Source: Candidatus Woesearchaeota archaeon
GTDB lineage: Archaea > Nanobdellota > Nanobdellia > Pacearchaeales > GW2011-AR1
Assembly: GCA_964623495.1 (NCBI GenBank)
Contig: CAZUTV010000001.1
Coordinates: 116,454-180,453 of the forward strand
Direction of reading: 5' to 3'
DNA length: 64,000 nt
Part shown: positions 45,555 to 62,816 of the stretch, in pieces
Numbering within the stretch: the stretch's first letter is position 1
Layout of the letters: every line of letters begins with the position of its first letter
Made by a program: the position numbers and the translations under genes
Notes under the pieces: model-generated
The model's database searches: none
What the model was told of the DNA's origin: nothing
Seen by the model: the letters and a program-made list of their open reading frames with translations, nothing else

Positions 45555-45959
45555 TTAAAACCAACTCTTTTTTCTTTCATTTTCGTCTTTTCCATACTTC
45601 AGTTTTCTATACTCCTTGTAATGCATATTAATGTTCTTCTCGCAGACAAAATCATGGTGCTTGAATCCTCCCCCAAAACTTTTCGGGATGTGCATCAATT
45701 CATGAATAATAACTTTGATTTTTTCCTCATCGCTGAGCTTGTCAAATCTTTCATGAATAAATTCAAGAGCATAATAGGCAGGAACTCCTATTGCTCTCTG
45801 CATAAGCTTTCCAAGAGCGTGGCATCTTGCAATTGTTCCTCGAGAGCTAGAACCATAGCTTCTAAAGCATTTCATTCTCTCAATCTTTACATGGGGATAA
45901 AGCATTCTTGAGATTTCGTCTGCAATTACCTGTATGTCTGGTGCTGGCTCGTATCTCAT
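45555..45959 (-). CDS. Small HExxH metallopeptidase-like protein (SprT/DUF45-like), tentative
   Basis: IIHELMHIP motif in a 134-aa protein. Start overlaps the stop of the ASCH gene. Confidence 0.45.
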   Translation of the reverse strand: MRYEPAPDIQVIADEISRMLYPHVKIERMKCFRSYGSSSRGTIARCHALGKLMQRAIGVPAYYALEFIHERFDKLSDEEKIKVIIHELMHIPKSFGGGFKHHDFVCEKNINMHYKEYRKLKYGKDENERKKSWF

Positions 45960-46327
45960 TTTATCTCTCCCTTAAATTCCCAGAAATTTAATTTTCCCTT
46001 AGCAGGAATCAAGTCAAGTCTTTTAACATTGCTAAGGACAAAACCATAACTTCCAAAGTCAGAATTAGCCAAATGCAGATTTTGATCTTTAAAAAAGTCT
46101 AGATCATTAACATATTTCTTAACATCTACTAGATTTGCTTTTCCAACTATAGACCCTAGAGGTAAATCATTAAAGCCAAATTTTCTCATAGCAGTTTTAT
46201 CAGGAATTAATGAAGAATGGATCAAAAACTCCCCCCTAAAATTAGTGTTCCACTTTCTAAGCTCAATTTTCTTCCTTCCTTGCAGTATCAACTCAGCGTA
46301 TGGCTGTTTCAACGATAGCGCTTTCAT
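45956..46327 (-). CDS. ASCH-domain (PUA-like) protein
   Basis: MKALSLKQPYAELILQGRKKIELRKW is the canonical ASCH N-terminal beta-hairpin motif. Confidence 0.6.
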   Translation of the reverse strand: MKALSLKQPYAELILQGRKKIELRKWNTNFRGEFLIHSSLIPDKTAMRKFGFNDLPLGSIVGKANLVDVKKYVNDLDFFKDQNLHLANSDFGSYGFVLSNVKRLDLIPAKGKLNFWEFKGEIK

Positions 46328-46530
46328 AATACCTCCACAAGTTTATTCTTGGATGTAAATCCGGATTTTATCCTAACTTCTCTTTTAAAATATCTTTGTA
46401 GCAACTTACAAAGCTCGACATTTGCTTTATTGTCTTGTGCTTTAGATTTAACTTTAATCAAATAGCAACCGTTTTTATCTTCAATTCCTTGTTCCTTAGA
46501 ATTAGGTTTTACTTTAACTTTTAAGATCAT
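46324..46530 (-). CDS. DUF167 (YggU/UPF0235) family protein
   Basis: LKVKVKPNSKEQGI...LIKVKSKAQDNKANVELCKLLQRYFKREVRIKSGFTSKNKLVEV matches the DUF167 pattern. Confidence 0.6.
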   Translation of the reverse strand: MILKVKVKPNSKEQGIEDKNGCYLIKVKSKAQDNKANVELCKLLQRYFKREVRIKSGFTSKNKLVEVL

Positions 46531-47378
46531 TATCTTAATCCCCTTAAAACATTATCCGGGCTTAATTTAAGTAATTTATCAATAATTCTCTCATCAAAAA
46601 GCTCTTTTTCCTTAACAAAGCAGGAAACTCCGTCGAGCTTTCCTTCCTTTGATACGTACAAAGAATACGGGCATCTTGCCAGCTTTCCTGAGGGAGTTGC
46701 AGAAGAATCCAGTATAATCTCGTCTTTTATTCTTTCATGATGGGCCCTAACCTCTACGCCAATACTTTTTGTTACCTCCTTAGCCCATTTTGTTGTAAAA
46801 CTCCCTTCATTAAAAGAAAAATGCTTCTCATAAAAACTATGAGGAACTTTCTTGTTTAAAAGAAGATATAAATGAAAACTTCTTCCTGTCCAGACAATAA
46901 AAACCTTAAATTGAATTAATTTTTTTAGCTCTTTATCTGATTTTATCTTCTTAAAAAGTTCTCGGACAACAATCAGATACTTCCCATAGCTAACCTCTTT
47001 TCCTTTATCAATATCAATAAAAATCCTGTCAATGGGTTTTCCGTAACCTTCTCCATTGCATGCGTAATGCATCTCAACAAGCTTTCTTTGAACGAAGTAA
47101 TGCCAGACGAGAATTTCTTTGTCACTTAACTGATTTTTAACATCTGCCAAATCCTCTGCTTTCCTTAACTGTAAGAACTTATCGCTTATCTTTAAATCAT
47201 TAATAAACAAGGGCTGATCTTTACTTCCCCGTTTAACAACAAAATCAACATTATCCCCAATATAAGTTTTAGTTGCTACTTCTCTTTTTCCAATAAACTT
47301 CTTTATTTTAGGAAAAATCTTTCTGTAATAGCTCAGGCAGTCCAATTGTCCTGTTGAATGCAAAATGTCTTCTTTCAT
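46530..47378 (-). CDS. Archaeo-eukaryotic primase (AEP) superfamily protein, PriS/PrimPol-like
   Basis: Motif I DRIFIDIDKG (DxD), motif II IVWTGRSFHLY (sGxrGxH-like), motif III ILDSSATPSGKLARCPYSLY (D...R.P.SlH-like), in the canonical order. Confidence 0.45.
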   Translation of the reverse strand: MKEDILHSTGQLDCLSYYRKIFPKIKKFIGKREVATKTYIGDNVDFVVKRGSKDQPLFINDLKISDKFLQLRKAEDLADVKNQLSDKEILVWHYFVQRKLVEMHYACNGEGYGKPIDRIFIDIDKGKEVSYGKYLIVVRELFKKIKSDKELKKLIQFKVFIVWTGRSFHLYLLLNKKVPHSFYEKHFSFNEGSFTTKWAKEVTKSIGVEVRAHHERIKDEIILDSSATPSGKLARCPYSLYVSKEGKLDGVSCFVKEKELFDERIIDKLLKLSPDNVLRGLR

Positions 47379-47435: not shown

Positions 47436-49364
47436 TTACATTCTCTCTTCACGCTTTTTTTTTCGTCTCTTCCACAATATCCACAAGATAAACAATATGA
47501 GAATAACTATCAATGCAATGATTATTATGTAACTTGCCCTTAGATATTTCTTCTCAACAACATTAAAGGTATCATAAGTAGTCACTGTAATATTTCCGTA
47601 TTTGGCTTCTCCAAGAACAATATAAGTTCCCTGAAGAGTATCTAACGGGACATGCATTCTTCTTTCAATTGACAAGTTTGTTTTTACAGCAAGGATTTCT
47701 TTCGAGGACTCGGAAATAACCAACTTATCAAAATCGGTAATTGTCAAATAAAGCTCAACATCCACAGGGGTTCCATACAGGCCAACATTTAACAGATCCA
47801 CTAAAACCCTAATGTCTGTACCGGGATTAACGGCCTTATACTCCTGAGGGACATTAACCTTAATATCAAAAAGAGCCTCTTTCTGCTTAATTTCAAGAAC
47901 AACGTTAACTGTCTTCTTGTTTTCTCCTTCGCCAAAGATAATTTTCCCGTAATAAACTCCAGGTTTAGCACTGCTTAAAGCATACAAATAAGCCCTAATG
48001 GTTTTTGTCTCTCCTTTCTTAACAACAAAATTTTTATCACTTAAGATTGCTTTATCAGTAAGATTTTGAGTTTCTGCAATGATATTAATGTCTCTAAATC
48101 CCACATTTTTTATTTTTATGTCAAAGCTTTTTCCTTCTTCCTTAAAAATTGTTGTTGTAATAAATAATGGGTCTATCTCAAATTCAGCATAAACTGCTCC
48201 GCCTCCGCCTCCTCCGCCGCCACCGCCTCCGCTAGGAGGAGTGGTCCCGCAGGAAACCTCGGAAACACTTATACTCCACTGCAAAGAATCATTTAGCAAT
48301 CCATCAGTAATCTCTACACTTATATTATGACTGCCCCCAACTCCGCATCCAAAGCTGTAGAAAAATTCGTCCGTTGAATTTCCGGAATCATACTCCTGAA
48401 ACAAACCATCAACATACCAATAAGCATCCGGAATAGTGCCGTCTGCATCATACTTTGTAATGTTAAAATAAAGATTATCTGTCCCTTGTGCACTAAATGA
48501 AAGATTGCTGGGATAATAAGAGGTGATATTTGGTGCCCTATTCTCATCCGTAACTGTCAAAGAAAAACTATCACAATCGCGCAAAGAGCCTCCGGTTTGA
48601 TTGCAATACCGAGTGATATTGGCATTAGGATAAGTTATCCCAGTATCATTAACGCACAATGTAACATTATAAACCCCTAAAGGAGTCTGATTGTTTGCTG
48701 TAAAATCAATAACCCCGCCGGGGCTTGTAATATTAAACAAACTAACTTGGCTTCCCGAAGAGTTTGTTATTGTAACGTTAAAAGCCAAGGTTCCGTAGCT
48801 TGGGAGTGAATTATACTCTGTGTCTGCAACATCAACTACCTCATAAAAAGTAGAATTATCCCCCTTATTCCAAACAGTCTGAACCCCTATATTTTCAATA
48901 TCCGGAGGATTATTTACCTCTATAACAGTTATATTTGTCTTGGTCGTATTTGAGCAGCACGTTGAATTAGTATCGTCAGTTATTATTACAGTTTCTTGGT
49001 AAAGTTTAGAGCTTACATTAACTCCCCCTGCATTTGTCTTGCTTAGATTTCCAGAAACAATTGCAAAGATCGTGTAGGGAGCCTGCTGATTAATCCAAAA
49101 GACAAAAAATGGATTTCTCGGGGAAATATCCCCAGACAAAACTCCATTGTCTGGATCTGTTGCATTAAATTCATAGTAGAGAATTTGATTTTCACAGACA
49201 AAGATAGACGTATTAACTCCGTTTATAATAGGAAAATAATAAGGCGCAATAACATTAACCTGAGAGGTAGTGTTTACAATACTTAATCCTAAAAATTTCA
49301 GGTTCCAGAATATAATTCCAAGAACAACAATAATCGCAAGTATTAACCACCTTTTTTTATTCAT
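47436..49364 (-). CDS. Large surface protein with N-terminal signal/TM, Asn-x-Ser/Thr-rich beta-rich body, poly-Gly linker (G11) and C-terminal TM anchor with basic tail
   Basis: MNKKRWLILAIIVVLGIIFW N-terminus, many N-glycosylation sequons, GGGGGGGGGGG, C-terminal IIIALIVILILFILWILWKRRKKKREERM. Confidence 0.45.
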   Translation of the reverse strand: MNKKRWLILAIIVVLGIIFWNLKFLGLSIVNTTSQVNVIAPYYFPIINGVNTSIFVCENQILYYEFNATDPDNGVLSGDISPRNPFFVFWINQQAPYTIFAIVSGNLSKTNAGGVNVSSKLYQETVIITDDTNSTCCSNTTKTNITVIEVNNPPDIENIGVQTVWNKGDNSTFYEVVDVADTEYNSLPSYGTLAFNVTITNSSGSQVSLFNITSPGGVIDFTANNQTPLGVYNVTLCVNDTGITYPNANITRYCNQTGGSLRDCDSFSLTVTDENRAPNITSYYPSNLSFSAQGTDNLYFNITKYDADGTIPDAYWYVDGLFQEYDSGNSTDEFFYSFGCGVGGSHNISVEITDGLLNDSLQWSISVSEVSCGTTPPSGGGGGGGGGGGAVYAEFEIDPLFITTTIFKEEGKSFDIKIKNVGFRDINIIAETQNLTDKAILSDKNFVVKKGETKTIRAYLYALSSAKPGVYYGKIIFGEGENKKTVNVVLEIKQKEALFDIKVNVPQEYKAVNPGTDIRVLVDLLNVGLYGTPVDVELYLTITDFDKLVISESSKEILAVKTNLSIERRMHVPLDTLQGTYIVLGEAKYGNITVTTYDTFNVVEKKYLRASYIIIIALIVILILFILWILWKRRKKKREERM

Positions 49365-49464: not shown

Positions 49465-50109
49465 TTATTTTTTCTTTAATTCGGCTTTTAATTTAGCCAT
49501 TTTTTCCTTTATTCTTTGGTCCTTTGGCTTCCTGTATCTTCTGAATAAGACTAGTCCTATAATTCCGACAGAAAGCACAGCAACAGTGATATAAACAACA
49601 CTATAATCCCAGCCATAAGGATTGCAAGCAACTCTTACAGTCATTTCATGAGAAATCGATGCTTTTGCTGCAGAACCGCCAGCGCCAGTCAAACTGTTTT
49701 CTAACGGCACAGATTCAATAATAACCTCGCCATCATATTCTTTTATTGGCTCAGTGCACTCTAATTTATCTATAGCCTTCCCAATTAAAGGGATAGAGGC
49801 ATACTGCCGGGTATAGACTTTAGGAACCTTAAAGTAAAAATTCAAAGGAATAGCATCCTGGCTGTAAGTGTATGGAGGAAGATATTTTATATCTGCATCT
49901 TTCATCACCAAAACTTCCTGTAATTCTTCTGAAACACTGACTTGAACATTTCCCTCTGTTGAATAGGGATTATAAGCCCCCACACTTAAAGACCCTTCCT
50001 CACCCTCGTTAAGCATCAAGGATTGCTGTTTAACAAAGATCCCAATGCCTGCAGAAGCAAAAGAGCAGAGTAATAAAACCCCGACAAATAAAGCAAATAT
50101 TTTCATCAT
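49465..50109 (-). CDS. Secreted protein with signal peptide and C-terminal TM anchor plus Lys-rich tail (hypothetical)
   Basis: Start placed at MMKIFALFVGVLLLCSFASA, adjacent to the stop of the upstream gene. C-terminal ITVAVLSVGIIGLVLFRRYRKPKDQRIKEKMAKLKAELKKK. Confidence 0.35.
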   Translation of the reverse strand: MMKIFALFVGVLLLCSFASAGIGIFVKQQSLMLNEGEEGSLSVGAYNPYSTEGNVQVSVSEELQEVLVMKDADIKYLPPYTYSQDAIPLNFYFKVPKVYTRQYASIPLIGKAIDKLECTEPIKEYDGEVIIESVPLENSLTGAGGSAAKASISHEMTVRVACNPYGWDYSVVYITVAVLSVGIIGLVLFRRYRKPKDQRIKEKMAKLKAELKKK

Positions 50110-50110
50110 C

Positions 50111-50722
50111 TTAAGTACACGAACCCCCTGTTGCAACCCCTTTAAATGTAATAGTATTATTAAAAGTACCTGAAGCTGTTCCTGCAGGAACATCAAGCCA
50201 GAACCTATAATAATGGTTGCTTCCAATACTTACATTTGGCCCTGCCTTGGTGGCTGTTGTTGTCATCGCAACCTCTTGCCCTAAACTAGGATGTGTGACA
50301 TTTGTTGCAGTATGATTATAATAAGTCTCGTTTCCGACAAGGATTTGGTCTCCTCCAGAGGTTTTTAAATTATCATTTGCACTAACACAGAGATCAACAT
50401 TTGTATTGCTGTCTGTTGAAACATTGACCCACATAGAAGTGGACTGGTTTGCTGTCGCACCGCCAACAGTTGTATTAAGTCCGTCATAATTATGCGTGGC
50501 ATTTTGGTTTGTTGCAGGGAGAGAGCTTATATTTCCAAACCTTATTCCATCAGAAAGATTCGTTGAGAGATCGATTGCAAAATAAACATTTATTGTAACA
50601 TTAGACGCAGTAGTCTGCTGTGTTGCATATCCTGTAGTTTTAGCTCCTTGATTAAATAACAGAATAACAGATAGCAAAAACAAAAATCCAAAAACCAACA
50701 CTATCCAATTTTCACCCTTCAT
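50111..50722 (-). CDS. Secreted/pilin-like protein homologous to the C-terminal domain of the adjacent 2777-aa giant protein
   Basis: MKGENWIVLVFGFLFLLSVILLF hydrophobic N-terminus. IRFGNISSLPATNQ...MWVNVSTDSNTNVDLCVSANDNLKTSGGDQILVGNETY...YRFWLDVPAGTASGTFNNTITFKGV aligns with INWSLSSLPAYNQ...YWVNITSYGG..MKAESDLRTAGGDVLGIGNETY...LKFFLNAPARQAAGNYNNSLSFRAV at the giant's C-terminus. Confidence 0.45.
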   Translation of the reverse strand: MKGENWIVLVFGFLFLLSVILLFNQGAKTTGYATQQTTASNVTINVYFAIDLSTNLSDGIRFGNISSLPATNQNATHNYDGLNTTVGGATANQSTSMWVNVSTDSNTNVDLCVSANDNLKTSGGDQILVGNETYYNHTATNVTHPSLGQEVAMTTTATKAGPNVSIGSNHYYRFWLDVPAGTASGTFNNTITFKGVATGGSCT

Positions 50723-50915
50723 AATATCAACCTCTTACACAAGAAAGTAGTTTCAAGCATTTATAAATATTATTCTCTTTTAGCTTCTTCTTTATATCGC
50801 CATATAAAATATAGTTAACTACAGATTGTCATAACATCCTTCGGAGGCAAATAGAGGATGTTGCTCGAGGGATTGAGAGTTTGCATCAATAATCCAAAAA
50901 GATGCAGGCTCGAAT

Positions 50916-50932
50916 AAAAACCGTAGGTTTTT
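50916..50932. repeat. 17-nt perfect palindrome AAAAACCGTAGGTTTTT (copy 1 of 2) at the 3' end of the giant gene
   Basis: Identical 17-mer also at 61340..61356. 7-bp stem, 3-nt loop, flanked by A/T runs. Confidence 0.55.
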
Positions 50933-53900
50933 ATGGAGATTCGCCGTTCTGCACAGCCCTAAAGGATAAGCTGTTGTTATAATTCCCGGCCGCCTGCCTT
51001 GCAGGAGCATTTAAGAAAAACTTAAGATAGATTGTAGCATTCCCTATATTACTTGCTATTAAATGGTTTGAAAAATCTGTTGTAAGAGGTATTTTAATTG
51101 AATCAGGCACACTGCTGTTCGAGGTTGAATTGGAATATGTTTCATTTCCAATGCCCAACACATCTCCTCCAGCAGTTCTCAAGTCGCTTTCTGCCTTCAT
51201 GTACAAATCGCTTGTGCCCCCATAAGAGGTTATATTTACCCAGTATTCAGTTATTCCTGTACCATTATTTCCGTCTGCAGATTGATTATATGCAGGAAGA
51301 GAGCTCAAGCTCCAATTAATCATCTGGCCAAGCCTTGAAGACAAATCCATAGCCACAGAATATGCATTAGCAATTACTGTTGAATTTTGCTTTGTTGCCC
51401 CATCTAGCTTAGCATCATTTGGAGTTACCTGGCAAGTTAAGTTTTGATCTATAGCAAACTCGCCATTAACAATAGTTGAAGCATTAGAAAATCCGTTCTT
51501 GGTATCCTGATAAATCTGATAGACCTGCTGGCTTGTAAGAGTTCTATTGTAAATCTGCAAGTTATCTAAAGTCATGTTAGTATAACAATTTGAGAGACAA
51601 AGATCATTAGGGTTCATTCCAAGAATAATAGGATTATTGTACTTCCTTAAAACAGTGCTCGTATCAGTACTGTTGTCGAGAGTTCCATTTAAGTAAACAC
51701 TAACTTTAGTCCCATTATAGGTAAAAGAGATAAAGGTGAAAGAATCATTAGCTATTGTAGTGTTAGATAAAAGAAGTTGTGATGAAGTTCCTGTTTCATT
51801 GAATATAACAACACGAATTCTAGAACCACTTAACCCAATAGTATACTCTGCCCTGGTTGAAATGTCGTTGCTTTTATAGACAAAGTAATTGCTTCCAGCA
51901 TTGGGTGTTTTAGGATTTGCCCAAAATGCAACAGTTAATCCGTTATGTGTTGAATTAAGGGATGAAGAACTTGCAATATTTACAGAATCATCAACACCAT
52001 CAAAATCCAAAGCTCCCCCAACCTTCCCGCTAGATTTCCAGGTTGTGCCTGTAAGAGAGCCGTTGTTTGCATTCCCAGAATAATCTCTAACACCGACACT
52101 TCCACTAACATTAACATCAAAAGGCATATTCAAAAGCAGCATTGAATTACTATTAACAAGCCAGTTGTAAACATTAGTAACTGTATCTGATTCATTATCG
52201 CTAGTGCTTTGATTGTAACAGCTAAGATTCTGACTTGAAACTCCGGGAAAAGGGCTTAAAGAAGGAGTGTTGTGCATCGGCTCTGTGTTTGTGTCATTAA
52301 CTGTCATTGACCAAATCTGGTCATCTTCTAAATTGCCGGCAGAGATATTTACTTTTATAGAATAAGTCCCTGCCTGCGTGTAGTTTCCGACCCAGATGAA
52401 AGTAGATTGATTGTCATAAGGGGTTTGTCTGCTACTATCAACAAACCACTTTATATTTACAGGAGTAACATTGGAATAAGTTATACTAAATGTCTGATTG
52501 CTGGGTTCAGCTATTGAAAAAGTGTCTGTTGTAGGAACATAAGCCAAAATAACAGGAGTGTATAAAATTAGGTGAACCATTTTGCTAGCGTTCATTGTCA
52601 CACCAGTAAAGTTAGAGCCATAACCTGATTTTGCAGCGCTAAAATTGTGCGGGGTGGAGCAATTTATAGTTGAGCTAGAGCCAGTACATCCTGTAACATA
52701 GGTTGCATCGCCCGTTTGGTTGTACTCCATAATCCACTGTGTTGTTGTCAAGCCATTTGCATCTGTTTGGTTATTATTAATCAAGAGAGCTCCATAAGTG
52801 TCTGTAAGATTAAAATTAACAGAAGAAACAGCAGTATAAACCTGGTCTGTAGTATTTCCTGTAAACTGATAATAAACCTCCACAAAACCAGTGCTAAGAA
52901 AATCAATCTTGGATTTATTAAAACTAACATTATAAAGTTCAATATTGGTCACGGCTCCTGCACCAAGAGTAATATCAGTACTGGAGCAATTAGTGATGCT
53001 TGAATTAAAAATAGAGACGTTATCCACAACTGAAAGAAGATAAAAGGCTGTTTGGCAATTTGTGATATTTAAACCAGACAAGTTTATTGAACTTGAGGAA
53101 ACCTGAACTGAATTAACATTTGTGCCAACCAATCCAGTAATAGTATCATTATTTGTAAGAATATTACTGACTGAATCAATGTTAATTCCGGAATAATTTG
53201 AAGAAACTGGCGGATCTCTTAAGATATTATGTTCTATAACAGAATTGTTCGAACCGATAAGAATATAACTACTAGAAAAGTTTGAGAGAGTATTATAAGT
53301 TATATTTATTCCATTAGGAATATCCCCGGAAATATCCATTCCCTTAACACCATGATGCAGCTGATTGTGGTCAAATATAATCCTATCATCCATATTAAAT
53401 GCCCCTGTAAACGTTGCATTGTCTGTACTATAATTCAGCTGATTATTGTAAACAGTAATATTTCCTCCAGCAACTATAGCAATCAAGCTTTGAGCATAAG
53501 AGAGTCTGGAGTTATTCACAAAAGAGTTTGTTGTATTTTCAAATCTAATTGCATACCCTCCAGCTAAATTAGAGATGTTTGAATTTAAAATATCTACGCT
53601 ATCAGAATATGTTCCAAGAGGAAGAATAATCCCATTCCCTAGTTGAACAAACCCACCTTGACAACCGCCTGCAGCAGAAGTATCGCCATAATAATTTCCA
53701 ACAATATCATTTAAAATTGAACTATTCACTAAGACATTATTTGAATTATTGATATAGATTGCAGAAAGATTCCCAGAATAGCATGTAGAAGTGTCTGTAG
53801 AATTAGACCAAAGTTTAGTTATATTATTTAAGTTTAATGTCGTGTTGTGAGAATTATCCAAAGCAATTCCATAAACAGTAACATAAGTTGTATTTATCCA

Positions 53901-56900
53901 GCTATTATTGTAAAGTGTATTGTTTTGGATAAAAGAATTGTTCGTGCCATCAAAATGTATTACTTTAGCATACTGCTCCATTCTGCAATTCTTAATAGTC
54001 ACATTATTTCTCGCTGCAACATTTACTCCCCATATGCCATAACTGTTATTCCCAAAAATCCTATAAGAGTTGCAGTCAAAAACAACATTATCTGCAGAGA
54101 TATTGTAATGCTCGCACTGGCTACCTGTAAGCGTAGTGCTTGAAGACACCTGTGTTATAGAACACATATCTGCAGAAAATGTCCAGTTAGAGCTTGCAAA
54201 AGAAGATTTAGAAGAATTATCATAAGCCAAGCAGTTCCACAAATAGCTTCCATCACTAAGCCCTGACAAAGAGAAATTAGCATAATAATTCCTAGTGAGA
54301 TTATAGATATTGAAAATTTCTGTTGAATTCAATGTTCTGTTAAAAAAGGCAACATCATCAATTGTCCCATTAAAGTCCCTGTTTGGATTTGGTGAAGCAG
54401 CAGCATCTCTATCTCTGCCTATTAAAACATATTGCCCAGAAAAGCCAAAAATAGAATCTGAAAAAGAAGAGTCTGTTGCCTTAGAAGAACCATCAATGTA
54501 CAAAACAACATCATTGCTTGCCCAGGTTAAAGCCACATGATGCCACGAATTAACATAACTGCTGTAATTGGTTTGGGCGCTGCCTGTTGCACTTAAAAAC
54601 TCCAAATCCTGGTCATTATTCAGATAAACTAAAAACTCTCCGCTTGAAAATGCGCCGCCATTGTAGTTTCCCAGAATAGCATAATCTGTGGTTGTGTCCA
54701 CTCTATTCTTAAAGTTAACCCATGTGCTGATTGTTCCTGTTGCTGTTGCTGTAAAGATGTTAGAAGTATTAACATAATCGTCTGTGCTTATGCCAATTCC
54801 ATTCCCAGCATAAGCCTCAATAAATTCATCTCCGTCAAACCCTACAGGAGTTCCATTATTTCCGCTTCCAGAAAAATCATAAACAATACTTAAATTCTCC
54901 CCATAACCGGCATCATTATTAAAATGATAAAGTAAAGTATTTCCGGTCATATTAATATTGTTGTAGCTGTCATAAATCCCGCTGTTAGGAAGCTCTGAAT
55001 ATTTTGTCTGATTCAAGTGCCAGGTTCCTGTTGTGTTTATGTATAAGCTAATGTTCTTTATCAAAATATCATCTGTAACATTGCACTGCAAGCTTAAAGA
55101 GTTTATAGCGATATAGCTGGATCCCGAGACAGGAGAAACCAAATTAACATTTGGCGCAGAGTCGGTATAAACACTAGAATTAATGCTTGTTGCTCCGTCA
55201 AGAATAGCATCATTAGGTGTTACCTGACAGGTTATGTTCTGAGGATTAATCATTTCTTGATATACAAGAGTTGCATTGTTTGTAAGCCCGTTTCTAGTGT
55301 CTTGAAATAACTGATAAACCTGCTGGCTTGTAAGAGTTCTATTGTAAACCCTAAAGTCATCAATTGTTCCGTTAAAAGGAGAAAAAGCACCAGATGAATC
55401 CCTGCCAAGACCTATTGTTAAATTGTAATCAGCCAAGTTGCTTGGAGCCCCCAAACTTTGATTCTCTCTTGAACCATTTATGTAAAGCGTGCAATTTCTA
55501 TTATCGCAGGCAAGAGAATACATATACCAGTTACCTGGATCAGGATAAGTCGCCATAAGAAGGTAAGAGTTATTAATTCTTGTCGGTAAAATCAGTCCAT
55601 CAAATGCATTCCAATTAAGACTAACTCCAAGAGAGTAATTTCCTTTAGAGAAAAAGCCAGCATCAATAAACGGGGCTTGAGGGAATCTTCCCATATTAAA
55701 CCAAAAGTTGATTGTGAAGTTATTTCCAAGCACAAGACTGGTATTAGGCACAACTAAAAAGTCATTTGTTGATTCGTTAAAATGATAACCTCCACCAATT
55801 TTTCCGCTAGTCCATAAAGGAGTTCCGTTAATTGTTGCATTAAAGCCATTTCCAGAATAATCCTTAGCTGCGCTTGAAGAATTTGTATCAAACGGCAGGT
55901 ATAAGGCAGTTATAGAAGTTCCATCAATAAGCCAATTATAAATATTTGTAACACTATCTCCATCAGCATCAACGGTTGATTGATTTGCACAAGTGAGGTT
56001 CTGCCACAAATAAATAGGATAAGGAGATAATGAAGGGGTGTTATGTGTTGGGGCATTATCTGTAGTAAGATAAGAAAAAGTATCTGTTGAGTTCCATTGA
56101 TTAACAGAATCATTAGCAAAAACCTTCCACTGAATTAAAATATTGTATGTTGAATTAATTGTTTTTGTAACATTACTCCAGTTTGCAACTCCGTTCATTG
56201 AAACCCAAGAATCATTAATTAGTGTTCCATTTCCATTATCAAAACTGAAGATATACCCGCTAAGTGCAGTGTCATCACTCCAGGCAACACTATGCTGAAC
56301 AGAAGCTCCTCTAACTGTTGAGTTTGTTGAATTTAAAGACCATTGTGGAGCATTATCTGTAGCATTATAATTCACATCTAACTTGATCAAATCGGTCCAA
56401 AGTGTGTTATGGAAAGGATTTTCTTGATGCAATGTGAAATATCCCTCAACTCCAAGAGATGTTTTTCTCTGGAATAAAGGCAGCTCCCCAGGAATATTTT
56501 CAAAATACAAATCCAGAGTATCATTATGATTAGTAAGCAGATAATTGTTATCTGAAAATCTAATCTCTCCAAGCTCAATTTTTTCTCCATTTAATTCAAC
56601 AATAGAAGGATAAATTTTTCTAGTTATATTCAGTGAAGAAAAATTGTCATTTACAAGCAAAAATATCTCATCTAAATGACTTGTTTCATTTAATACCTCT
56701 CTTAATTGCAATTTGGCTTTTCCATCTTTAATCTCTAAATTAGGCACTTCACTTAAAATTAGTCTTTCTTTTTCTGAAGAATTAAGTTTAGGGATCCCTA
56801 CACTATCTAAAAGATATTCGCTGCCGTTCCAAGAATAAATAGTGGGGCATTCAACAAAACTATCCAGTTCCTGAACTAACATTAAAGTATGGCCAGAGCT

Positions 56901-59264
56901 ATTAATATAATGAAAAAGTGTGGAGGAGCTGCCACTTATTACTGCTGTAAGAACTCTTTCTGTCCCAGAAGTTCCACAGGCATCGTTTAAACAGCTTGTG
57001 TTTCTGCTACTTCCCCATGAACCAGCCGTAAAATTATAAACATAAAAATAAAGGTCGTTTGCTGAAGCAATTTCATTTACTATCTCGTTATATCCTTCCC
57101 AAGTATAAGTTAAATTGTTTATTGTTGACGTAGATTCACTAATTTTAAACCTCACCATAATAACATTATACTGATTAATTCCACTAACCATAGAAATAGA
57201 ATTCCAAGTATTATCGCTTCTGCTAATCTCATCTTCGTTAGTAGAATTCATTGTTGTAGGTCCACTACTCCATCCACTTAAAACAGGAGAAACCGGGTTT
57301 TGAGAATCCAATCCAAAATAACCTATCTGATCTGTTTGATTAGGGTAATAAGTGGCAACAGTTGCAGGATCAATAATATGATCAAACTCCAGGCTTCCAT
57401 CCAAAACTCTAAGATCAAAGGTATCCTGCTCGCCCTGCAAACCATCCAAATAAACAGTATTGTACTCCTCCGAGTTTAAGCTTGTAAACTCAGCAATTAA
57501 AATGCTTTGATTAACTTCATAAACCTCAATTCTCGGGGTTCCATTAACAACTCTCGGATATAAGGTTATATCTCTACTAGAATCAAGTTTATGCTCAAAA
57601 GTGGCTCTTACATAATGTCCTCCAGGAATTGTCTCGCTCCAAATACCATCCAAGTCCTTAACTTGTTCATAGATATCGCTAAGAACAGTATAGTTTTCAT
57701 CTAAATGCTCTGCTTTGGTTATTAAAATAATTCTAAATGTCTGGTTGCTTAGACTAGGAACTATCCATTCAACATAATCGTAAATTCCATTTCCATTCTT
57801 GTCTTCAACCTTTAAGGGAGTAAGATATTTAGATTGCTCTTCCCAATAAATTTTAACTTTGCTAGGATAATTAATCTTAAGATCCTCATTTAGATTTGTA
57901 AAAGCAAGAACATTTTCATAATGAATATCACCAGGCCCAATAATCTTAACCACTTTTCCATCATCAATCTCTTGTTCTTCAGAATAAGGCGCATCAGTAT
58001 AATACCCTATAGCTATTTCAGAATTATCTTCAAGTAATTCCTTGATCTCTACTTTAACCTCATCTCCTACTTCAGAGACATCAACAGCTCTGCCAGTAAT
58101 TCCTCTGCCAAAAAATCCTAAAATAAAGTTAAAAATTCCTTTAAAGAAACCACCGCCCCCGGTTTCAGAAGTTACACTACCTGTAATACCATGGCTTTCT
58201 TCTGCAATTGTCTTCTCATTTTTAACATTAACATCAAGTTCTTCTTCTTTCTCATCTTTTATTTTCTTAACAGAAACATTTCCTGCAAGATTTGGCAAGT
58301 CAACAACCAATCCTTCTGCGGAATTAGCCCCATCAATATCAACTTTAATTCTTTTCTCCCACTTAACAGGCTTACCAAGCACAGCACTATATTGAACAAC
58401 GTTTTCCTGAGTCGTAATATTAACAGTTTCATTTAAAATTGTGGTATTTGTAACATTTTGAACTATTATAAAGTTTGTTTCATTTAAAATCTCAGTTATA
58501 TTGGCAATTGTTCCATTAGTAATTACTGTTTGGTTTGTGGCATTTGTGATAGTTCCTGTCCCTTCACTAGATTCATTTGAAGGAATTTGGGGAGTTTCGA
58601 TTGTTTCATTTTCAGTTACATTTTGTTCTGGCCCAATAATTGTTTCATTAGTAGAAGGTTCTTCTGTTTCATTAGTTGCTGGTTCTTCCTGAGTTTCATT
58701 ACCTATCTCATCAGGAGTTTCTTCAGAAACTGCTTCTGTTATTTCTTCTGCCGGGGTTTCTTCAGTTGTGGTTTCTTCTGGAGTTTCAGTAGAGGTAGAT
58801 TCACTAAAAGAAGAATCACCGCCCCCAGAATCAGAACTAGAAGATTCACTTGAGCTTTCTGAGCCTGATTCACTCGGAGCTTCTTCTGAGGTCAGACCTG
58901 TAAAAAAAGACTTAACATTACTCGCAAGATTCTTAAAGCTAAAACCAGATGCTCCTTGTTCTGATTGAGAAAACTGATTACCCAGAATAAATATAGCTAT
59001 TAGAATAAAGAATATGGCTCCAAGCAAAATAAAAAGTGTTTTGTGTTGTTTAAAAGTAGGGGGTATTTTTGGGAACCTTTTTCTAAAAGGTTCATTGGAA
59101 ACCTTTTCTAAAGGTTTATTTTTAAAAGGTTCAGTTACAGCACGAGTTTCTTTGTTCTCAGAAACATATCTAGAATGGGTCTTTCCTTGCTTGTCCCTAT
59201 AAGTGTGATAATAATACGGCCCAAACCTCTTACCATTACGATAAATATAACGTTTGTATACCAA
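50931..59264 (-). CDS. Giant (2777 aa) membrane-anchored surface protein: three LamG/concanavalin-like domains, parallel beta-helix-like Asn-rich repeats, internal tandem module duplication, Ser/Glu/Thr-rich stalk. TTG start with GAGGT Shine-Dalgarno
   Basis: N-terminal basic cytoplasmic segment plus TM (LFILLGAIFFILIAIFIL). LamG hallmarks FNGTIDDFRVYNRTLTSQQVYQLFQ, FNGTIDDVAFFNRTLNSTEIFNIYN, LDNLQIYNRTLTSQQVYQIYQ. Duplicated ~300-aa modules (THNTPSLSPYPIYLWQNLTCANQST... vs MHNTPSLSPFPGVSSQNLSCYNQST...). Start codon TTG at 59262..59264 preceded by AAAAGAGGT. Confidence 0.7.
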   Translation of the reverse strand: MVYKRYIYRNGKRFGPYYYHTYRDKQGKTHSRYVSENKETRAVTEPFKNKPLEKVSNEPFRKRFPKIPPTFKQHKTLFILLGAIFFILIAIFILGNQFSQSEQGASGFSFKNLASNVKSFFTGLTSEEAPSESGSESSSESSSSDSGGGDSSFSESTSTETPEETTTEETPAEEITEAVSEETPDEIGNETQEEPATNETEEPSTNETIIGPEQNVTENETIETPQIPSNESSEGTGTITNATNQTVITNGTIANITEILNETNFIIVQNVTNTTILNETVNITTQENVVQYSAVLGKPVKWEKRIKVDIDGANSAEGLVVDLPNLAGNVSVKKIKDEKEEELDVNVKNEKTIAEESHGITGSVTSETGGGGFFKGIFNFILGFFGRGITGRAVDVSEVGDEVKVEIKELLEDNSEIAIGYYTDAPYSEEQEIDDGKVVKIIGPGDIHYENVLAFTNLNEDLKINYPSKVKIYWEEQSKYLTPLKVEDKNGNGIYDYVEWIVPSLSNQTFRIILITKAEHLDENYTVLSDIYEQVKDLDGIWSETIPGGHYVRATFEHKLDSSRDITLYPRVVNGTPRIEVYEVNQSILIAEFTSLNSEEYNTVYLDGLQGEQDTFDLRVLDGSLEFDHIIDPATVATYYPNQTDQIGYFGLDSQNPVSPVLSGWSSGPTTMNSTNEDEISRSDNTWNSISMVSGINQYNVIMVRFKISESTSTINNLTYTWEGYNEIVNEIASANDLYFYVYNFTAGSWGSSRNTSCLNDACGTSGTERVLTAVISGSSSTLFHYINSSGHTLMLVQELDSFVECPTIYSWNGSEYLLDSVGIPKLNSSEKERLILSEVPNLEIKDGKAKLQLREVLNETSHLDEIFLLVNDNFSSLNITRKIYPSIVELNGEKIELGEIRFSDNNYLLTNHNDTLDLYFENIPGELPLFQRKTSLGVEGYFTLHQENPFHNTLWTDLIKLDVNYNATDNAPQWSLNSTNSTVRGASVQHSVAWSDDTALSGYIFSFDNGNGTLINDSWVSMNGVANWSNVTKTINSTYNILIQWKVFANDSVNQWNSTDTFSYLTTDNAPTHNTPSLSPYPIYLWQNLTCANQSTVDADGDSVTNIYNWLIDGTSITALYLPFDTNSSSAAKDYSGNGFNATINGTPLWTSGKIGGGYHFNESTNDFLVVPNTSLVLGNNFTINFWFNMGRFPQAPFIDAGFFSKGNYSLGVSLNWNAFDGLILPTRINNSYLLMATYPDPGNWYMYSLACDNRNCTLYINGSRENQSLGAPSNLADYNLTIGLGRDSSGAFSPFNGTIDDFRVYNRTLTSQQVYQLFQDTRNGLTNNATLVYQEMINPQNITCQVTPNDAILDGATSINSSVYTDSAPNVNLVSPVSGSSYIAINSLSLQCNVTDDILIKNISLYINTTGTWHLNQTKYSELPNSGIYDSYNNINMTGNTLLYHFNNDAGYGENLSIVYDFSGSGNNGTPVGFDGDEFIEAYAGNGIGISTDDYVNTSNIFTATATGTISTWVNFKNRVDTTTDYAILGNYNGGAFSSGEFLVYLNNDQDLEFLSATGSAQTNYSSYVNSWHHVALTWASNDVVLYIDGSSKATDSSFSDSIFGFSGQYVLIGRDRDAAASPNPNRDFNGTIDDVAFFNRTLNSTEIFNIYNLTRNYYANFSLSGLSDGSYLWNCLAYDNSSKSSFASSNWTFSADMCSITQVSSSTTLTGSQCEHYNISADNVVFDCNSYRIFGNNSYGIWGVNVAARNNVTIKNCRMEQYAKVIHFDGTNNSFIQNNTLYNNSWINTTYVTVYGIALDNSHNTTLNLNNITKLWSNSTDTSTCYSGNLSAIYINNSNNVLVNSSILNDIVGNYYGDTSAAGGCQGGFVQLGNGIILPLGTYSDSVDILNSNISNLAGGYAIRFENTTNSFVNNSRLSYAQSLIAIVAGGNITVYNNQLNYSTDNATFTGAFNMDDRIIFDHNQLHHGVKGMDISGDIPNGINITYNTLSNFSSSYILIGSNNSVIEHNILRDPPVSSNYSGINIDSVSNILTNNDTITGLVGTNVNSVQVSSSSINLSGLNITNCQTAFYLLSVVDNVSIFNSSITNCSSTDITLGAGAVTNIELYNVSFNKSKIDFLSTGFVEVYYQFTGNTTDQVYTAVSSVNFNLTDTYGALLINNNQTDANGLTTTQWIMEYNQTGDATYVTGCTGSSSTINCSTPHNFSAAKSGYGSNFTGVTMNASKMVHLILYTPVILAYVPTTDTFSIAEPSNQTFSITYSNVTPVNIKWFVDSSRQTPYDNQSTFIWVGNYTQAGTYSIKVNISAGNLEDDQIWSMTVNDTNTEPMHNTPSLSPFPGVSSQNLSCYNQSTSDNESDTVTNVYNWLVNSNSMLLLNMPFDVNVSGSVGVRDYSGNANNGSLTGTTWKSSGKVGGALDFDGVDDSVNIASSSSLNSTHNGLTVAFWANPKTPNAGSNYFVYKSNDISTRAEYTIGLSGSRIRVVIFNETGTSSQLLLSNTTIANDSFTFISFTYNGTKVSVYLNGTLDNSTDTSTVLRKYNNPIILGMNPNDLCLSNCYTNMTLDNLQIYNRTLTSQQVYQIYQDTKNGFSNASTIVNGEFAIDQNLTCQVTPNDAKLDGATKQNSTVIANAYSVAMDLSSRLGQMINWSLSSLPAYNQSADGNNGTGITEYWVNITSYGGTSDLYMKAESDLRTAGGDVLGIGNETYSNSTSNSSVPDSIKIPLTTDFSNHLIASNIGNATIYLKFFLNAPARQAAGNYNNSLSFRAVQNGESP

Positions 59265-59284
59265 CCTCTTTTACCTCTTTTGGA

Positions 59285-59330
59285 AACCTTTCCTAAAGGT
59301 TTATTTTTGGGAACCTTTTCCTAAAAGGTT
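59285..59330. promoter_or_regulatory. Two palindromic sites AACCTTT-CCT-AAAGGTT (59285..59301) and AACCTTTT-CCT-AAAAGGTT (59312..59330), 21-66 nt upstream of the giant gene start. Two more copies lie inside its first 65 codons (59074..59092, 59100..59116)
   Basis: Four copies of the same 7-8-bp inverted-repeat half-sites with 3-nt spacers, regularly spaced ~27 nt within each pair. Read directly from sequence. Confidence 0.45.
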
Positions 59331-59404
59331 CATGTGCTGTAACTATTTAAAGATTGTTGTGAGGCAAGAAAAAGATATAAAAACAAGTAATCTACATTAA
59401 AATT

Positions 59405-61895: not shown

Positions 61896-62816
61896 CTAAG
61901 GCAGATTCATATATTTGGTATTGCTCAAGAAAAATTCCAACACAACAAGAATAATTGCCAGCAATAGGAGATAATCTACAGTTTCAATAGTGACTTTTCT
62001 CCGGGTAACCTTAAAAATCTGTGAAAAAGAATTTGTTAGGTTCTGCTTATTTGCGGCGCTAAAATAAACTCCGCCAGTAGAATAGGCCAGGCTCTTTAAA
62101 GAGTCTTCGTCAAGCTTCGAAATAGCAAACTCTGTCTGCCCCCCTTCAGGCGTTCCTATTCCAATAGTGTTAATAACAACATTATTTGCATTGGCGTATT
62201 CAACAGCATCGTCAACATTTCCGACATTCACCTGCCCGTCACTTAATAAAACAATGGCTTTTTGATTCTCATTTTTAAGAAGATTGGTGGAGGTAAGAAC
62301 AGCCTCGTATAAATCTGTACCCCCTATTCCGCTTATGATTATACTATCTATTGCTCTTTTCAGCTCGTCTTTCTTCTCTGTCATGTCTTTATCTATTCTA
62401 GAGCTGGAAGAAAAAGACACAACTCCAAACCTTATGTCTATAGGAGAAGATTCAATAAAACTTGTTGCAGTTTCCTTTGCTGCACTAAGTCTATCAGGAA
62501 TTAAATCTTTTGCAGTCATGCTTTGGGATACATCTATTGCAATAACAAAAGAAAAAGTGCTTGATTCTTGGGTAGTATGGACATTAAATCCTGAAACAGC
62601 AAATACCAAACATAAAACTATCACGATGTTTAAAATTAAAATCACCACATTCTTCGAGAAAAAATCAATTCCCTGTATTCTTGAAATTGCCTCAAAATTT
62701 GCAAATCTAAGGGCGGTTTTTTTCCGGCTCCCCAAAGCTAAAAAATGAATAAAAAACAATAAAGGAATAAAAAAAAGCAGAAATAAATACTGGGGATGTG
62801 AAAAAGAAAAGATCAT
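61896..62816 (-). CDS. von Willebrand factor A domain protein, BatA-like, with N-terminal TM helices
   Basis: MIDAS motif FVIAIDVSQSMTAKD, ...GGTDLYEAV..., IVLLSDGQVNVGN. Two N-terminal TM segments. Confidence 0.7.
   Translation of the reverse strand: MIFSFSHPQYLFLLFFIPLLFFIHFLALGSRKKTALRFANFEAISRIQGIDFFSKNVVILILNIVIVLCLVFAVSGFNVHTTQESSTFSFVIAIDVSQSMTAKDLIPDRLSAAKETATSFIESSPIDIRFGVVSFSSSSRIDKDMTEKKDELKRAIDSIIISGIGGTDLYEAVLTSTNLLKNENQKAIVLLSDGQVNVGNVDDAVEYANANNVVINTIGIGTPEGGQTEFAISKLDEDSLKSLAYSTGGVYFSAANKQNLTNSFSQIFKVTRRKVTIETVDYLLLLAIILVVLEFFLSNTKYMNLP

What the first reader, a model, noticed from the sequence alone, without database searches (positions are those of the whole stretch)
49465..59404. 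Giant 2777-aa LamG/beta-helix surface protein with TTG start, internal module duplication and an adjacent gene encoding a paralogue of its C-terminal domain
The 8.3-kb gene encodes an N-terminally membrane-anchored protein with a Ser/Glu/Thr-rich stalk, three LamG/ConA-like lectin modules (FNGTIDDFRVYNRTLTSQQV-type hallmarks), Asn-rich parallel beta-helix-like stretches with dense N-glycosylation sequons, and two ~300-aa tandemly duplicated modules. It starts at TTG with a GAGGT SD. Immediately downstream, a 203-aa secreted protein with a pilin-like hydrophobic N-terminus is homologous to the giant's last ~150 residues, and is followed by another anchored secreted protein. Such giant lectin-like proteins are candidate host-attachment factors in episymbiotic DPANN archaea. 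The split 'C-terminal domain as separate gene' arrangement suggests modular exchange or a cognate-partner relationship.
Basis: partly seen in the sequence, partly recalled or inferred. Interest (0 to 1): 0.6.

Follow-up and report, generated by a model that had tools for sequence, protein, structure and literature searches.

The report
Giant adhesin in conserved DPANN surface cassette
The 2777-residue lectin-rich surface protein is real. It is the variable member of a four-gene cell-surface cassette conserved across Woese-/Pacearchaeota-type DPANN archaea, whose shared pilin-like domain and membrane-anchored Ig-fold partners suggest an undescribed way of displaying host-binding proteins.

Summary
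There is a 2777-aa TTG-initiated ORF (50931-59264, minus strand) with one N-terminal transmembrane helix, an acidic Ser/Thr/Glu stalk and three LamG domains. N-glycosylation sequons are 2.3-fold enriched. A ~300-aa module is duplicated but dispersed, not tandem. The last ~147 residues are homologous to the adjacent 203-aa protein. Beta-helix support is sub-threshold.

The arrangement is not a local oddity. In 59 non-redundant loci, mostly labelled Woese-/Pacearchaeota or Nanoarchaeota, the same cassette recurs. L is a large protein (394 to >3300 aa in these loci) ending in this "S domain". S is one or two small free-standing S-domain proteins. I is a ~214-aa signal peptide + Ig sandwich + C-terminal anchor. 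M is a 460-700-aa doubly anchored protein.

L-type and small-type S domains are ancient reciprocal paralogues, so they are cognate partners rather than products of recent exchange.

The predicted S fold weakly resembles donor-strand pilins (Csu, CfaB, Sulfolobus thread, AbpA, TasA). The predicted I fold resembles PapD/MSP domains, the enterococcal WxL-interacting protein and the Caf1M chaperone.

Best reading: a strand-complementation surface-display system analogous to Gram-positive WxL clusters, chaperone-usher pili and haloarchaeal tafi, with the giant as variable adhesin. The mechanism is inferred, not shown.

The parts
50931..59264 (-). L gene: 2777-aa giant surface protein, TTG start
   Evidence: The orthologue's start aligns.
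59037..59264 (-). Cytoplasmic N-terminal region (aa 1-76) with the conserved motif KRYIYRNGKRFGPYYYHTYRD
   Evidence: Conserved in the L003 orthologue. Weak DUF6788 match, E 3.9e-4, below the cut-off.
58980..59036 (-). Single TM helix / signal anchor (aa 77-95)
   Evidence: Hydropathy 3.16 over 19 aa.
58560..58967 (-). Acidic Ser/Thr/Glu-rich low-complexity stalk (aa ~100-235)
   Evidence: Translation.
55170..56063 (-). Duplicated module copy A (aa 1068-1365), containing LamG-1 (aa 1166-1316)
   Evidence: Laminin_G_3 E 2.8e-19.
54315..54785 (-). LamG-2 (aa 1494-1650)
52935..54107 (-). Asn-rich region resembling a right-handed beta-helix (aa ~1720-2110)
   Evidence: PF13229 E 0.011, sub-threshold. 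The repeat pattern is visible. 35% identity to the L003 orthologue.
51375..52292 (-). Duplicated module copy B (aa 2325-2630), containing LamG-3 (aa 2422-2581)
   Evidence: E 1.3e-21. The NCBIfam TafC hit covers the LamG part only.
50931..51374 (-). L-type S domain (aa 2631-2777): constant C-terminal pilin-like docking domain
   Evidence: BLASTP to the 203-aa protein, E 4e-16. HMM E 3.3e-24. 51-55% identity to the C-termini of otherwise unrelated giants.
50723..50930 (-). 208-nt AT-rich spacer with the TATA-like TTTATAAA (50759-50766) and a GAGGT Shine-Dalgarno-like motif upstream of the S gene. It probably carries a separate promoter for S-I.
   Evidence: Sequence read directly. This is inference.
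50111..50722 (-). S gene: 203-aa free-standing small-type S-domain protein (TM 5-23, conserved TGYAT..SNVTI..Y extension, beta-sandwich 50-197, two conserved Cys)
49465..50109 (-). I gene: 214 aa. Signal peptide, PapD/MSP/WxLIP-like Ig sandwich (23-161) with a conserved low-confidence loop GxGGSATxMSVSxP (aa ~135-155), TM 170-192, basic cytoplasmic helix.
47436..49364 (-). M gene: 642 aa. N-terminal TM, variable Ig-like ectodomain, poly-Gly linker, two conserved Ig-like domains with weak PapD/ASH-clan hits, C-terminal TM plus basic tail.
59285..59330 (.). Two palindromes AACCTTT-N3-5-AAAGGTT upstream of the start codon, duplicated at 59074-59116 inside the ORF
   Evidence: 4 found, 0 expected. 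Absent from the orthologous loci.

Best explanation
The region is the L-S-I part of a conserved four-gene (L-S-I-M) cell-surface cassette of Woese-/Pacearchaeota-type DPANN archaea.

L, the giant, is the variable cargo: a Sec-exported, heavily N-glycosylated adhesin built from LamG lectin modules, Ig-like domains and a probable beta-helix. It ends in a constant ~147-aa 'S domain'. S is the same domain as a free-standing small protein. I is a membrane-anchored Ig-fold protein of PapD/MSP/WxLIP type. M carries two similar Ig domains next to its C-terminal anchor.

Proposed mechanism (inferred): the S domain is a pilin-like beta-sandwich that is completed or bound by a beta-strand from a partner. 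Candidate donors are the conserved, unstructured Gly-rich loop of I and/or the conserved N-terminal extension (T.SNVTI..Y) of small S. The L-type and small-type S domains together with I (and M) would then form a non-covalent membrane-anchored platform. That platform holds the giant adhesin on the cell and points its lectin domains outward, towards the host.

This parallels Gram-positive WxL clusters, in which large and small WxL proteins are held by the WxL-interacting protein.

Shown: the homology, the domain content, the conservation and order of the four genes, the paralogue split and the fold resemblances.

Inferred: strand complementation, the stoichiometry, whether the N-terminal helices are cleaved, and host binding.
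For: - S domain shared by the giant and the 203-aa protein. The same C-terminal domain is found on otherwise unrelated large proteins (51-55% identity; also 404-, 545-, 1755- and 3174-aa proteins).
- Cassette conservation in 59 loci: S 55, I 55, M 47, L 44, all four 36. The shortfalls include loci cut by contig ends. The S stop and the I start are 1 nt apart.
- L-type and small-type domains are reciprocal clades.
- AF2 model of S (pLDDT 86): a TM helix, then an unstructured but highly conserved 25-aa extension, then a beta-sandwich. The top Foldseek PDB hits are almost all donor-strand fibre subunits: Csu, TLP-1a, CfaB, AbpA, Saci_0406, FimA, CupE, PapA, CanA, TasA.
- AF2 model of I (pLDDT 91): an Ig sandwich with a conserved low-confidence loop, then a C-terminal TM. 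There are 22 PDB hits at E<=1e-3, including MSP/VAP/HYDIN PapD-like domains and E. faecium WxLIP 9i1y (2.5e-4). Further hits at slightly weaker E are WxLIP bound to long WxL, 9i25 (3.8e-3), and the Caf1M chaperone (1.4e-3).
- M's membrane-proximal domains give recurrent weak PapD/ASH-clan hits.
- No peptidase or ATPase is conserved next to the cassette. This is consistent with Sec export followed by spontaneous assembly.
Against: - No sequence-level link to WxL, DUF916/DUF3324, DUF1102, TasA or any Pfam/NCBIfam family for S, I or the giant's S domain.
- Foldseek hits for S are weak (best E 5e-3, none <=1e-3, query-normalised TM-score 0.3-0.42) and could reflect generic beta-sandwich similarity.
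- No complex could be modelled, so strand donation is untested.
- The giant has an N-terminal TM helix preceded by a conserved 76-aa cytoplasmic segment and followed by a stalk-like region. This suggests it may stay anchored by its N-terminus, in which case a C-terminal anchoring domain would be redundant or would make a loop.
- The residue after the conserved TG[YHF] varies (A/V/L/D/I), so signal-peptidase cleavage of small S is uncertain.
- WxL domains bind peptidoglycan, which these archaea are not known to have.
Confidence: 0.45

Rival explanations
1. Donor-strand-exchange fibre (thread/tafi/chaperone-usher-like pilus). Small S is cleaved after its signal helix and polymerises head-to-tail through its N-terminal strand. 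The giant is the FimH-like tip adhesin (lectin part N-terminal, pilin domain C-terminal). I is a membrane-tethered PapD-like chaperone or a TafF-like terminal anchor. M is an assembly platform.
For: - The nearest structural neighbours of S are polymerising pilins with N-terminal donor strands.
- The N-terminal extension is conserved and disordered, as AF2 also predicted for the protein used to model TLP-1.
- 17 of 59 loci have two small S paralogues, as with major/minor pilins.
- The minimal L proteins (~400 aa) are LamG plus S domain. This is the same domain pair as the tafi tip adhesin TafC, in the order seen in FimH (PMC11821415).
- S-I have their own putative promoter.
- The I fold matches Caf1M.
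Against: - No conserved signal-peptidase site.
- The ~290-aa variants of S carry a ~95-aa cytoplasmic extension before the TM, which suggests stable anchoring.
- The giant also has a cytoplasmic N-terminal domain plus a TM.
- Unlike taf clusters, there is no dedicated signal peptidase or DUF5305 partner.
- No polymer could be modelled.
Confidence: 0.28
2. There is no physical coupling. The S domain is simply a conserved glycan-, S-layer- or host-binding lectin-like module used both alone and as the terminal domain of large adhesins. I and M are unrelated surface proteins that are merely co-regulated.
For: - GH123-type beta-sandwich domains also appear among the fold hits.
- S and I show no detectable sequence relation.
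- All interaction evidence is by analogy.
Against: - Strict gene order and adjacency across deep divergence.
- The domain is always at the extreme C-terminus of L.
- The reciprocal paralogue split implies distinct, complementary roles.
- I carries a conserved unstructured loop, which is typical of a binding element.
Confidence: 0.2
3. Artefact. The giant ORF or its internal duplication results from misassembly or a read-through of several genes.
For: None beyond its unusual length and repetitive composition.
Against: - Identical sequence in two independent assemblies.
- The modules are only 73% identical over 175 nt.
- Orthologous 2200-3300-aa ORFs in many genomes have collinear N-terminal, beta-helix and C-terminal parts.
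Confidence: 0.02

Closest known systems
WxL / Csc cell-surface clusters of Lactobacillales (small WxL, large WxL, WxLIP = DUF916-DUF3324-TM, LPXTG protein)
   Same: - Same cluster logic: a small secreted protein that is only the domain, and a large adhesin with that domain always at the C-terminus and variable N-terminal binding domains (including a beta-helix).
- An Ig-fold protein with a C-terminal TM helix whose disordered loop is predicted to complete the partner's sandwich.
- The I model hits WxLIP structures 9i1y and 9i25.
   Different: - No sequence similarity.
- No Trp-x-Leu motifs conserved in both types (small type YRFWLD, L type lacks the Trp).
- I has one Ig domain rather than two.
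- Archaeal host without a known peptidoglycan.
- An additional M protein.
- L and S have N-terminal TM helices, some with long cytoplasmic extensions.
Haloarchaeal Tat-fimbriae (tafi: TafA, TafE, TafC, TafF) and related Sec-dependent DUF1102/Mth60 fimbriae
   Same: - An archaeal donor-strand system with an FimA-like major subunit.
- A LamG-bearing tip adhesin (TafC).
- A TM-anchored terminal subunit (TafF).
- The giant's LamG domains hit the TafC model.
   Different: - The TafC hit is 87 bits against a cut-off of 410 and covers the LamG part only.
- Domain order is reversed: TafC has the pilin-like domain N-terminal.
- No Tat motif, no dedicated signal peptidase (TafD) and no DUF5305 (TafG) nearby.
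- No DUF1102 match.
Bacterial chaperone-usher pili (FimH/PapG two-domain adhesins, PapD/FimC/Caf1M chaperones, Csu/CFA-I pilins)
   Same: - Adhesin made of a lectin part plus a C-terminal pilin domain homologous to the rod subunit.
- A PapD-like Ig-fold partner.
- The best fold hits of S are Csu, CfaB and FimA.
   Different: - No outer membrane and no usher.
- The PapD-like protein is membrane-anchored and has a single domain.
- The adhesin is 10-20 times larger.
- The similarity is at fold level only and weak.
Archaeal threads (Saci_0406), bundling pili (AbpA), cannulae (CanA) and bacterial TasA
   Same: - Glycosylated beta-sandwich subunits with an N-terminal donor strand that are Sec-exported and assemble without a chaperone.
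- All appear among the top fold hits.
   Different: - No sequence homology.
- Those clusters lack a giant adhesin carrying the subunit domain, and lack an Ig-TM partner of this type.
Giant LamG-containing surface proteins of other DPANN (e.g. nanohaloarchaeal SPEARE proteins; recalled from memory, not tested)
   Same: - Very large, LamG-rich, putatively host-binding proteins of episymbiotic archaea.
- The L003 orthologue also carries a Peptidase_S8 domain.
   Different: - The window's giant has no protease or nuclease domain.
- To my knowledge, the constant C-terminal S domain and the S-I-M partners have not been described for those proteins.

Membership tests
Laminin_G_3 / ConA-like lectin (PF13385) | Pfam HMM match above the gathering score | tested here: met
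   187 bits against a cut-off of 27.6, three stretches. Modules scanned singly give 70 and 78 bits.
Right-handed parallel beta-helix (PF13229 Beta_helix) | Pfam HMM match above the gathering score, or a confident structural model | tested here: inconclusive
   15.8 bits against a cut-off of 25.9, E 0.011. PbH1-like repeats are visible. No PDB sequence hit.
WxL domain (large/small WxL proteins) | Sequence match to the WxL domain with two Trp-x-Leu motifs | tested here: not met
   No Pfam family at E<=10 for the 203-aa protein, and none at E<=0.01 for the giant's S domain. L-type domains lack the Trp (YLKFFL).
WxL cluster architecture | Adjacent genes for a small domain-only protein, a large protein with the domain at its C-terminus, and an Ig-fold protein with a C-terminal TM | tested here: met
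   (52 of 59 loci have S+I; 44 have L). This is an analogy of architecture, not homology.
WxLIP (DUF916 + DUF3324 + TM) | Pfam DUF916/DUF3324 match, with two tandem Ig domains | tested here: not met
   No Pfam hit for the 214-aa protein at E<=10. It has one Ig domain only. The fold-level hit to 9i1y (E 2.5e-4, query-normalised TM-score 0.39) is resemblance only.
PapD-like / MSP Ig fold (I protein) | Structural similarity to MSP/PapD-like domains | tested here: met
   Foldseek E 1e-4 to 1e-3 and target-normalised TM-score 0.53-0.62 to MSP, VAP and the HYDIN PapD-like domain; Caf1M at 1.4e-3. The model is predicted, not solved.
Donor-strand (chaperone-usher/thread/TasA-type) pilin | Incomplete Ig-like sandwich with an acceptor groove, plus an N-terminal donor strand that completes the neighbour | tested here: inconclusive
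   The fold hit list is dominated by such pilins, but the best E is 5e-3. A conserved disordered N-terminal extension is present. The groove and the complementation are not testable with a monomer model.
Type IV pilin / class III signal peptide | Short basic leader ending in [KR]-[GA] immediately before the hydrophobic helix; helix-plus-globular-head fold | tested here: not met
   No conserved G/A cleavage motif before the helix. No type IV pilin appears among the top 50 fold hits.
TafC family fimbrial protein (NF052521) | NCBIfam equivalog score >= 410 bits over the full model | tested here: not met
   87 bits. Only model positions 182-367 (the LamG part) are matched.
DUF4402 | Pfam match above the gathering score | tested here: not met
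   Only 4 of 58 family members match, best E 0.015. The window protein has no hit.

The most novel reading that the evidence does not exclude
A previously undescribed adhesin-display or pilus system, widespread in Woese-/Pacearchaeota-type DPANN archaea. It would be a membrane-tethered archaeal counterpart of chaperone-usher and WxL systems, in which a constant pilin-like domain plugs hypervariable, up to >8000-aa host-binding proteins into a conserved S-I-M apparatus by beta-strand complementation. It would be the machinery by which these episymbionts attach to their hosts.
Probability: 0.4. Interest if true: 0.75.

Novelty: new variant of a known kind. Interest (0 to 1): 0.6.

Why it matters
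How DPANN episymbionts attach to their hosts is largely unknown, and Woese-/Pacearchaeota have almost no cultured representatives. A conserved four-gene cassette that carries the lineage's most variable giant lectin protein gives concrete targets, whose partners are small enough to express:
- S, I and the ~150-aa docking domain, for structural and pull-down work.
- A marker for finding the host-binding proteins in any genome of the group.
- A test of whether strand-complementation assembly, known from chaperone-usher pili, WxL clusters, threads and tafi, has an equivalent in the smallest archaea.

If the coupling is not real, the finding reduces to one more large LamG adhesin, which is ordinary for DPANN.

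Tried and rejected
- Pfam and NCBIfam on the S, I and M proteins and on pieces of the giant found nothing above threshold except LamG.
- Sequence searches of the PDB with the S, I and M profiles and with two giant segments gave no meaningful hit.
- hhalign of the S family against the I family showed no relation (probability 8%). I is therefore not a diverged pilin by sequence.
- HMMER with default filters missed the giants' C-terminal domain because of the composition-bias filter. It was recovered with --max.
- BLASTP of the giant against itself returned only the identity hit, so I redid the comparison with masked 200-aa windows.
- Bacterial promoter/terminator scans were uninformative for an archaeon.
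- Hydrophobic/Asn autocorrelation did not give a clean beta-helix period.
- A prophage or mobile-element context was considered because of the PhageMetallopep and Prim-Pol neighbours. I rejected it because these are syntenic housekeeping neighbours in up to a third of loci and the cassette moves without them.
- A type IV pilin reading was rejected.
- Misassembly was rejected.
Full report
**1. The observation**

The ORF listing gives a 2777-aa ORF at 50931..59264 on the minus strand, starting with TTG (translation). An in-frame TAA lies three codons upstream. The orthologous giant in a related genome begins MVFKRYIHRNGKKFGPYYY, aligned with (TTG)VYKRYIYRNGKRFGPYYY. The public gene call uses the same start.

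Hydropathy finds one TM helix, at aa 77-95. It is followed by an acidic Ser/Thr/Glu-rich stretch.

Pfam finds three Laminin_G_3 stretches (E 2.6e-55). They lie at aa 1166-1316, 1494-1650 and 2422-2581.

Asn, Ser and Thr make up 32% of residues. There are 148 N-x-S/T sequons against 63.6 +/- 6.5 in shuffles.

A windowed self-comparison shows that aa 1068-1365 and 2325-2630 are homologous at ~40% identity. About 960 residues lie between them, so 'tandem' is wrong.

At the DNA level the two copies share only 73% identity over 175 nt. Two independent metagenome assemblies are 100% identical to the window over 13.7 and 10.6 kb. Misassembly is therefore excluded.

The beta-helix claim is only weakly supported. 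PF13229 scores 15.8 bits against a cut-off of 25.9, although NxxIxNN-type coils are visible.

The 203-aa protein (50111..50722) aligns to giant aa 2618-2776 at 36% identity, E 4e-16.

The next gene most likely starts at ATG 50109, one base after the preceding stop. It encodes 214 aa with a signal peptide and a C-terminal TM.

**2. Organism and context**

The window encodes eIF2-gamma, aIF5B, Kae1, a YGR210-type GTPase and gyrase A/B at 36% GC. Homologues of the small proteins are named Nanoarchaeota, Pacearchaeota or Woesearchaeota. It is a DPANN archaeon.

**3. The pair is part of a conserved cassette**

The 203-aa protein belongs to a family with no Pfam model:
- 144 relatives in the word-indexed search.
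- 605 cluster representatives at E<=1e-3 in the exhaustive search.

Among the 150 best-scoring representatives, most are 190-210 aa. A ~290-aa subgroup has a ~95-aa cytoplasmic extension, and several large proteins carry the domain at their extreme C-terminus.

The 214-aa protein has its own family of at least 114 members, found on the same contigs.

I fetched 58 loci from species-representative genomes and scored all ORFs with HMMs of the three families. Among 59 non-redundant loci:

| Feature | Loci |
|---|---|
| Small S protein | 55 |
| I protein | 55 |
| M protein | 47 |
| Large upstream ORF ending in the S domain (L) | 44 |
| All four | 36 |
| Two small S genes | 17 |

The shortfalls include loci cut by contig ends.

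The order is L, S, I, (S'), M, all on one strand. L ranges from 394 to more than 3300 aa in these loci, and a gene call of at least 8193 aa exists. The smallest L proteins are essentially LamG plus S domain.

Between the window's giant and other giants, the N-terminal anchor region, the beta-helix and the LamG modules are shared only with close relatives. The last ~147 aa are 51-55% identical even to an otherwise unrelated giant.

No peptidase, ATPase or other gene is consistently attached to the cassette.

**4. The two S-domain types are old partners**

In an all-against-all comparison of 109 domains, every L-type domain has an L-type best hit (38/38) and every small-type domain has a small-type best hit (71/71).
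- Identity is 48-49% within types and 35% between types.
- Small-type domains have a C-terminal Cys (69/71) and the YRFWLD motif (64/71).
- L-type domains have neither.

The arrangement is therefore a long-standing division of labour. It is not recent exchange between the two genes. What varies is the adhesin portion of L.

**5. Folds**

S protein. AF2 on a 58-sequence alignment gives pLDDT 86. The model has a helix at 4-24, an unstructured segment at 25-49 and a beta-sandwich at 50-197. The unstructured segment nevertheless holds near-invariant residues (TGYAT...T.SNVTI..Y).

Foldseek against the PDB gives no hit at E<=1e-3. The list from 5e-3 downward is nevertheless dominated by subunits of donor-strand fibres: Csu, TLP-1a, CfaB, AbpA, the Saci_0406 thread, FimA, CupE, PapA, CanA and TasA.

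The AF2 prediction used to model TLP-1 likewise showed the N-terminal donor strand as disordered (PMC11494351).

I protein. AF2 on 60 sequences gives pLDDT 91. The model has a signal helix, an Ig sandwich at 23-161, a TM at 170-192 and a basic helix. The only low-confidence stretch (aa ~131-150) overlaps a conserved loop, GxGGSATxMSVSxP.

Foldseek gives 22 hits at E<=1e-3. They include MSP/VAP/HYDIN PapD-like domains and the E. faecium WxL-interacting protein (9i1y, 2.5e-4). Slightly weaker hits are the same protein bound to a long WxL (9i25, 3.8e-3) and the Caf1M chaperone (1.4e-3).

M protein. Its two membrane-proximal domains give recurrent weak hits to PapD/ASH-clan families.

**6. Mechanism**

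Three described systems combine these elements.

- Chaperone-usher pili. FimH-type adhesins have an N-terminal lectin and a C-terminal pilin domain homologous to the rod subunit, and PapD-like chaperones donate a strand.
- Haloarchaeal tafi. TafA is the major subunit, the LamG-bearing TafC sits at the tip, and the TM-anchored TafF sits at the base. All were modelled as linked by donor strands (PMC11821415).
- Gram-positive WxL clusters. [quoted passage not shown] AF2 predicts that this protein's disordered loop completes the WxL sandwich (PMC10599100, PMC9772566).

The DPANN cassette reproduces the WxL gene logic most closely, and the pilin fold most closely on the S side.

My preferred reading is that S domains are held by beta-strand complementation on the membrane-anchored I (and perhaps M). 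This would form a platform that retains and presents the giant adhesin.

The main rival is a true fibre of S subunits with the giant at the tip.

I could not model complexes, so the interaction itself is inference.

Several features complicate both readings:
- The giant's conserved cytoplasmic N-terminus and TM.
- The stalk-like segment next to that TM.
- The ~290-aa S variants with long cytoplasmic extensions.
- The poorly conserved putative signal-peptidase site.

**7. Known or new**

Large LamG proteins in DPANN are a familiar theme. The cassette, the S domain and the I and M families have no Pfam or NCBIfam model. I found no paper linking DPANN to donor-strand systems or describing this cluster.

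The principle is known, but this embodiment appears undescribed. I therefore rate it a new variant of a known kind, with moderate-to-good interest that depends on the untested interaction.

Noticed in passing
window 59064-59120 and 59274-59333: Four palindromes AACCTTT-N3-5-AAAGGTT (0 expected by chance). Two lie just upstream of the giant's TTG start and two inside codons ~50-64. They form a 32-nt direct repeat that is 97% identical. The upstream copy would encode the same peptide, EPFRKRFPKI, followed by a stop. They are absent from the orthologous loci L003 and L005. Possible readings are operator sites, RNA hairpins or a remnant duplication.
   Followed up: partly
window 59115-59264 (giant aa 1-50): A conserved cytoplasmic N-terminal motif, KRYIYRNGKRFGPYYYHTYRDKQGKTH, precedes the TM helix. 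It is shared with the L003 giant and gives a weak, sub-threshold DUF6788 match. Its function is unknown. It is an unusual leader for an exported protein.
   Followed up: partly
P0265, P0266, P0289 (relatives of the 203-aa protein): A ~290-aa subgroup of the small S family has a ~95-aa, Lys/Glu-rich, coiled-coil-like cytoplasmic extension before the TM helix. This argues that at least some S proteins stay membrane-anchored.
   Followed up: no
P0243 (698 aa): A single called protein joins a small S protein directly to an M-type protein, either as a fusion or through a missed stop. It supports a functional link between S and M.
   Followed up: no
L003 17676-18809: In the syntenic Hainich groundwater genome, a reverse-transcriptase gene (RVT_1, 377 aa) sits between the NTP-transferase and Kae1 genes. 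The window has no such gene there.
   Followed up: no
window 28306-30165 and 30368-32908: Two further large secreted-type proteins: one of 619 aa with a CARDB domain and one of 846 aa with MopE-like metal-binding motifs. Neither carries an S domain.
   Followed up: no
window 45555-47378: PhageMetallopep, ASCH and LigD-type Prim-Pol genes lie downstream of the cassette and look phage-like. However, the metallopeptidase gene recurs next to the cassette in 20 loci, so it reflects conserved chromosomal synteny rather than a prophage.
   Followed up: partly
window 61896-63715: A BatA/VWA gene and a DUF58/VWA gene sit as a pair (Bat-like aerotolerance operon genes) upstream of the YGR210 GTPase.
   Followed up: no
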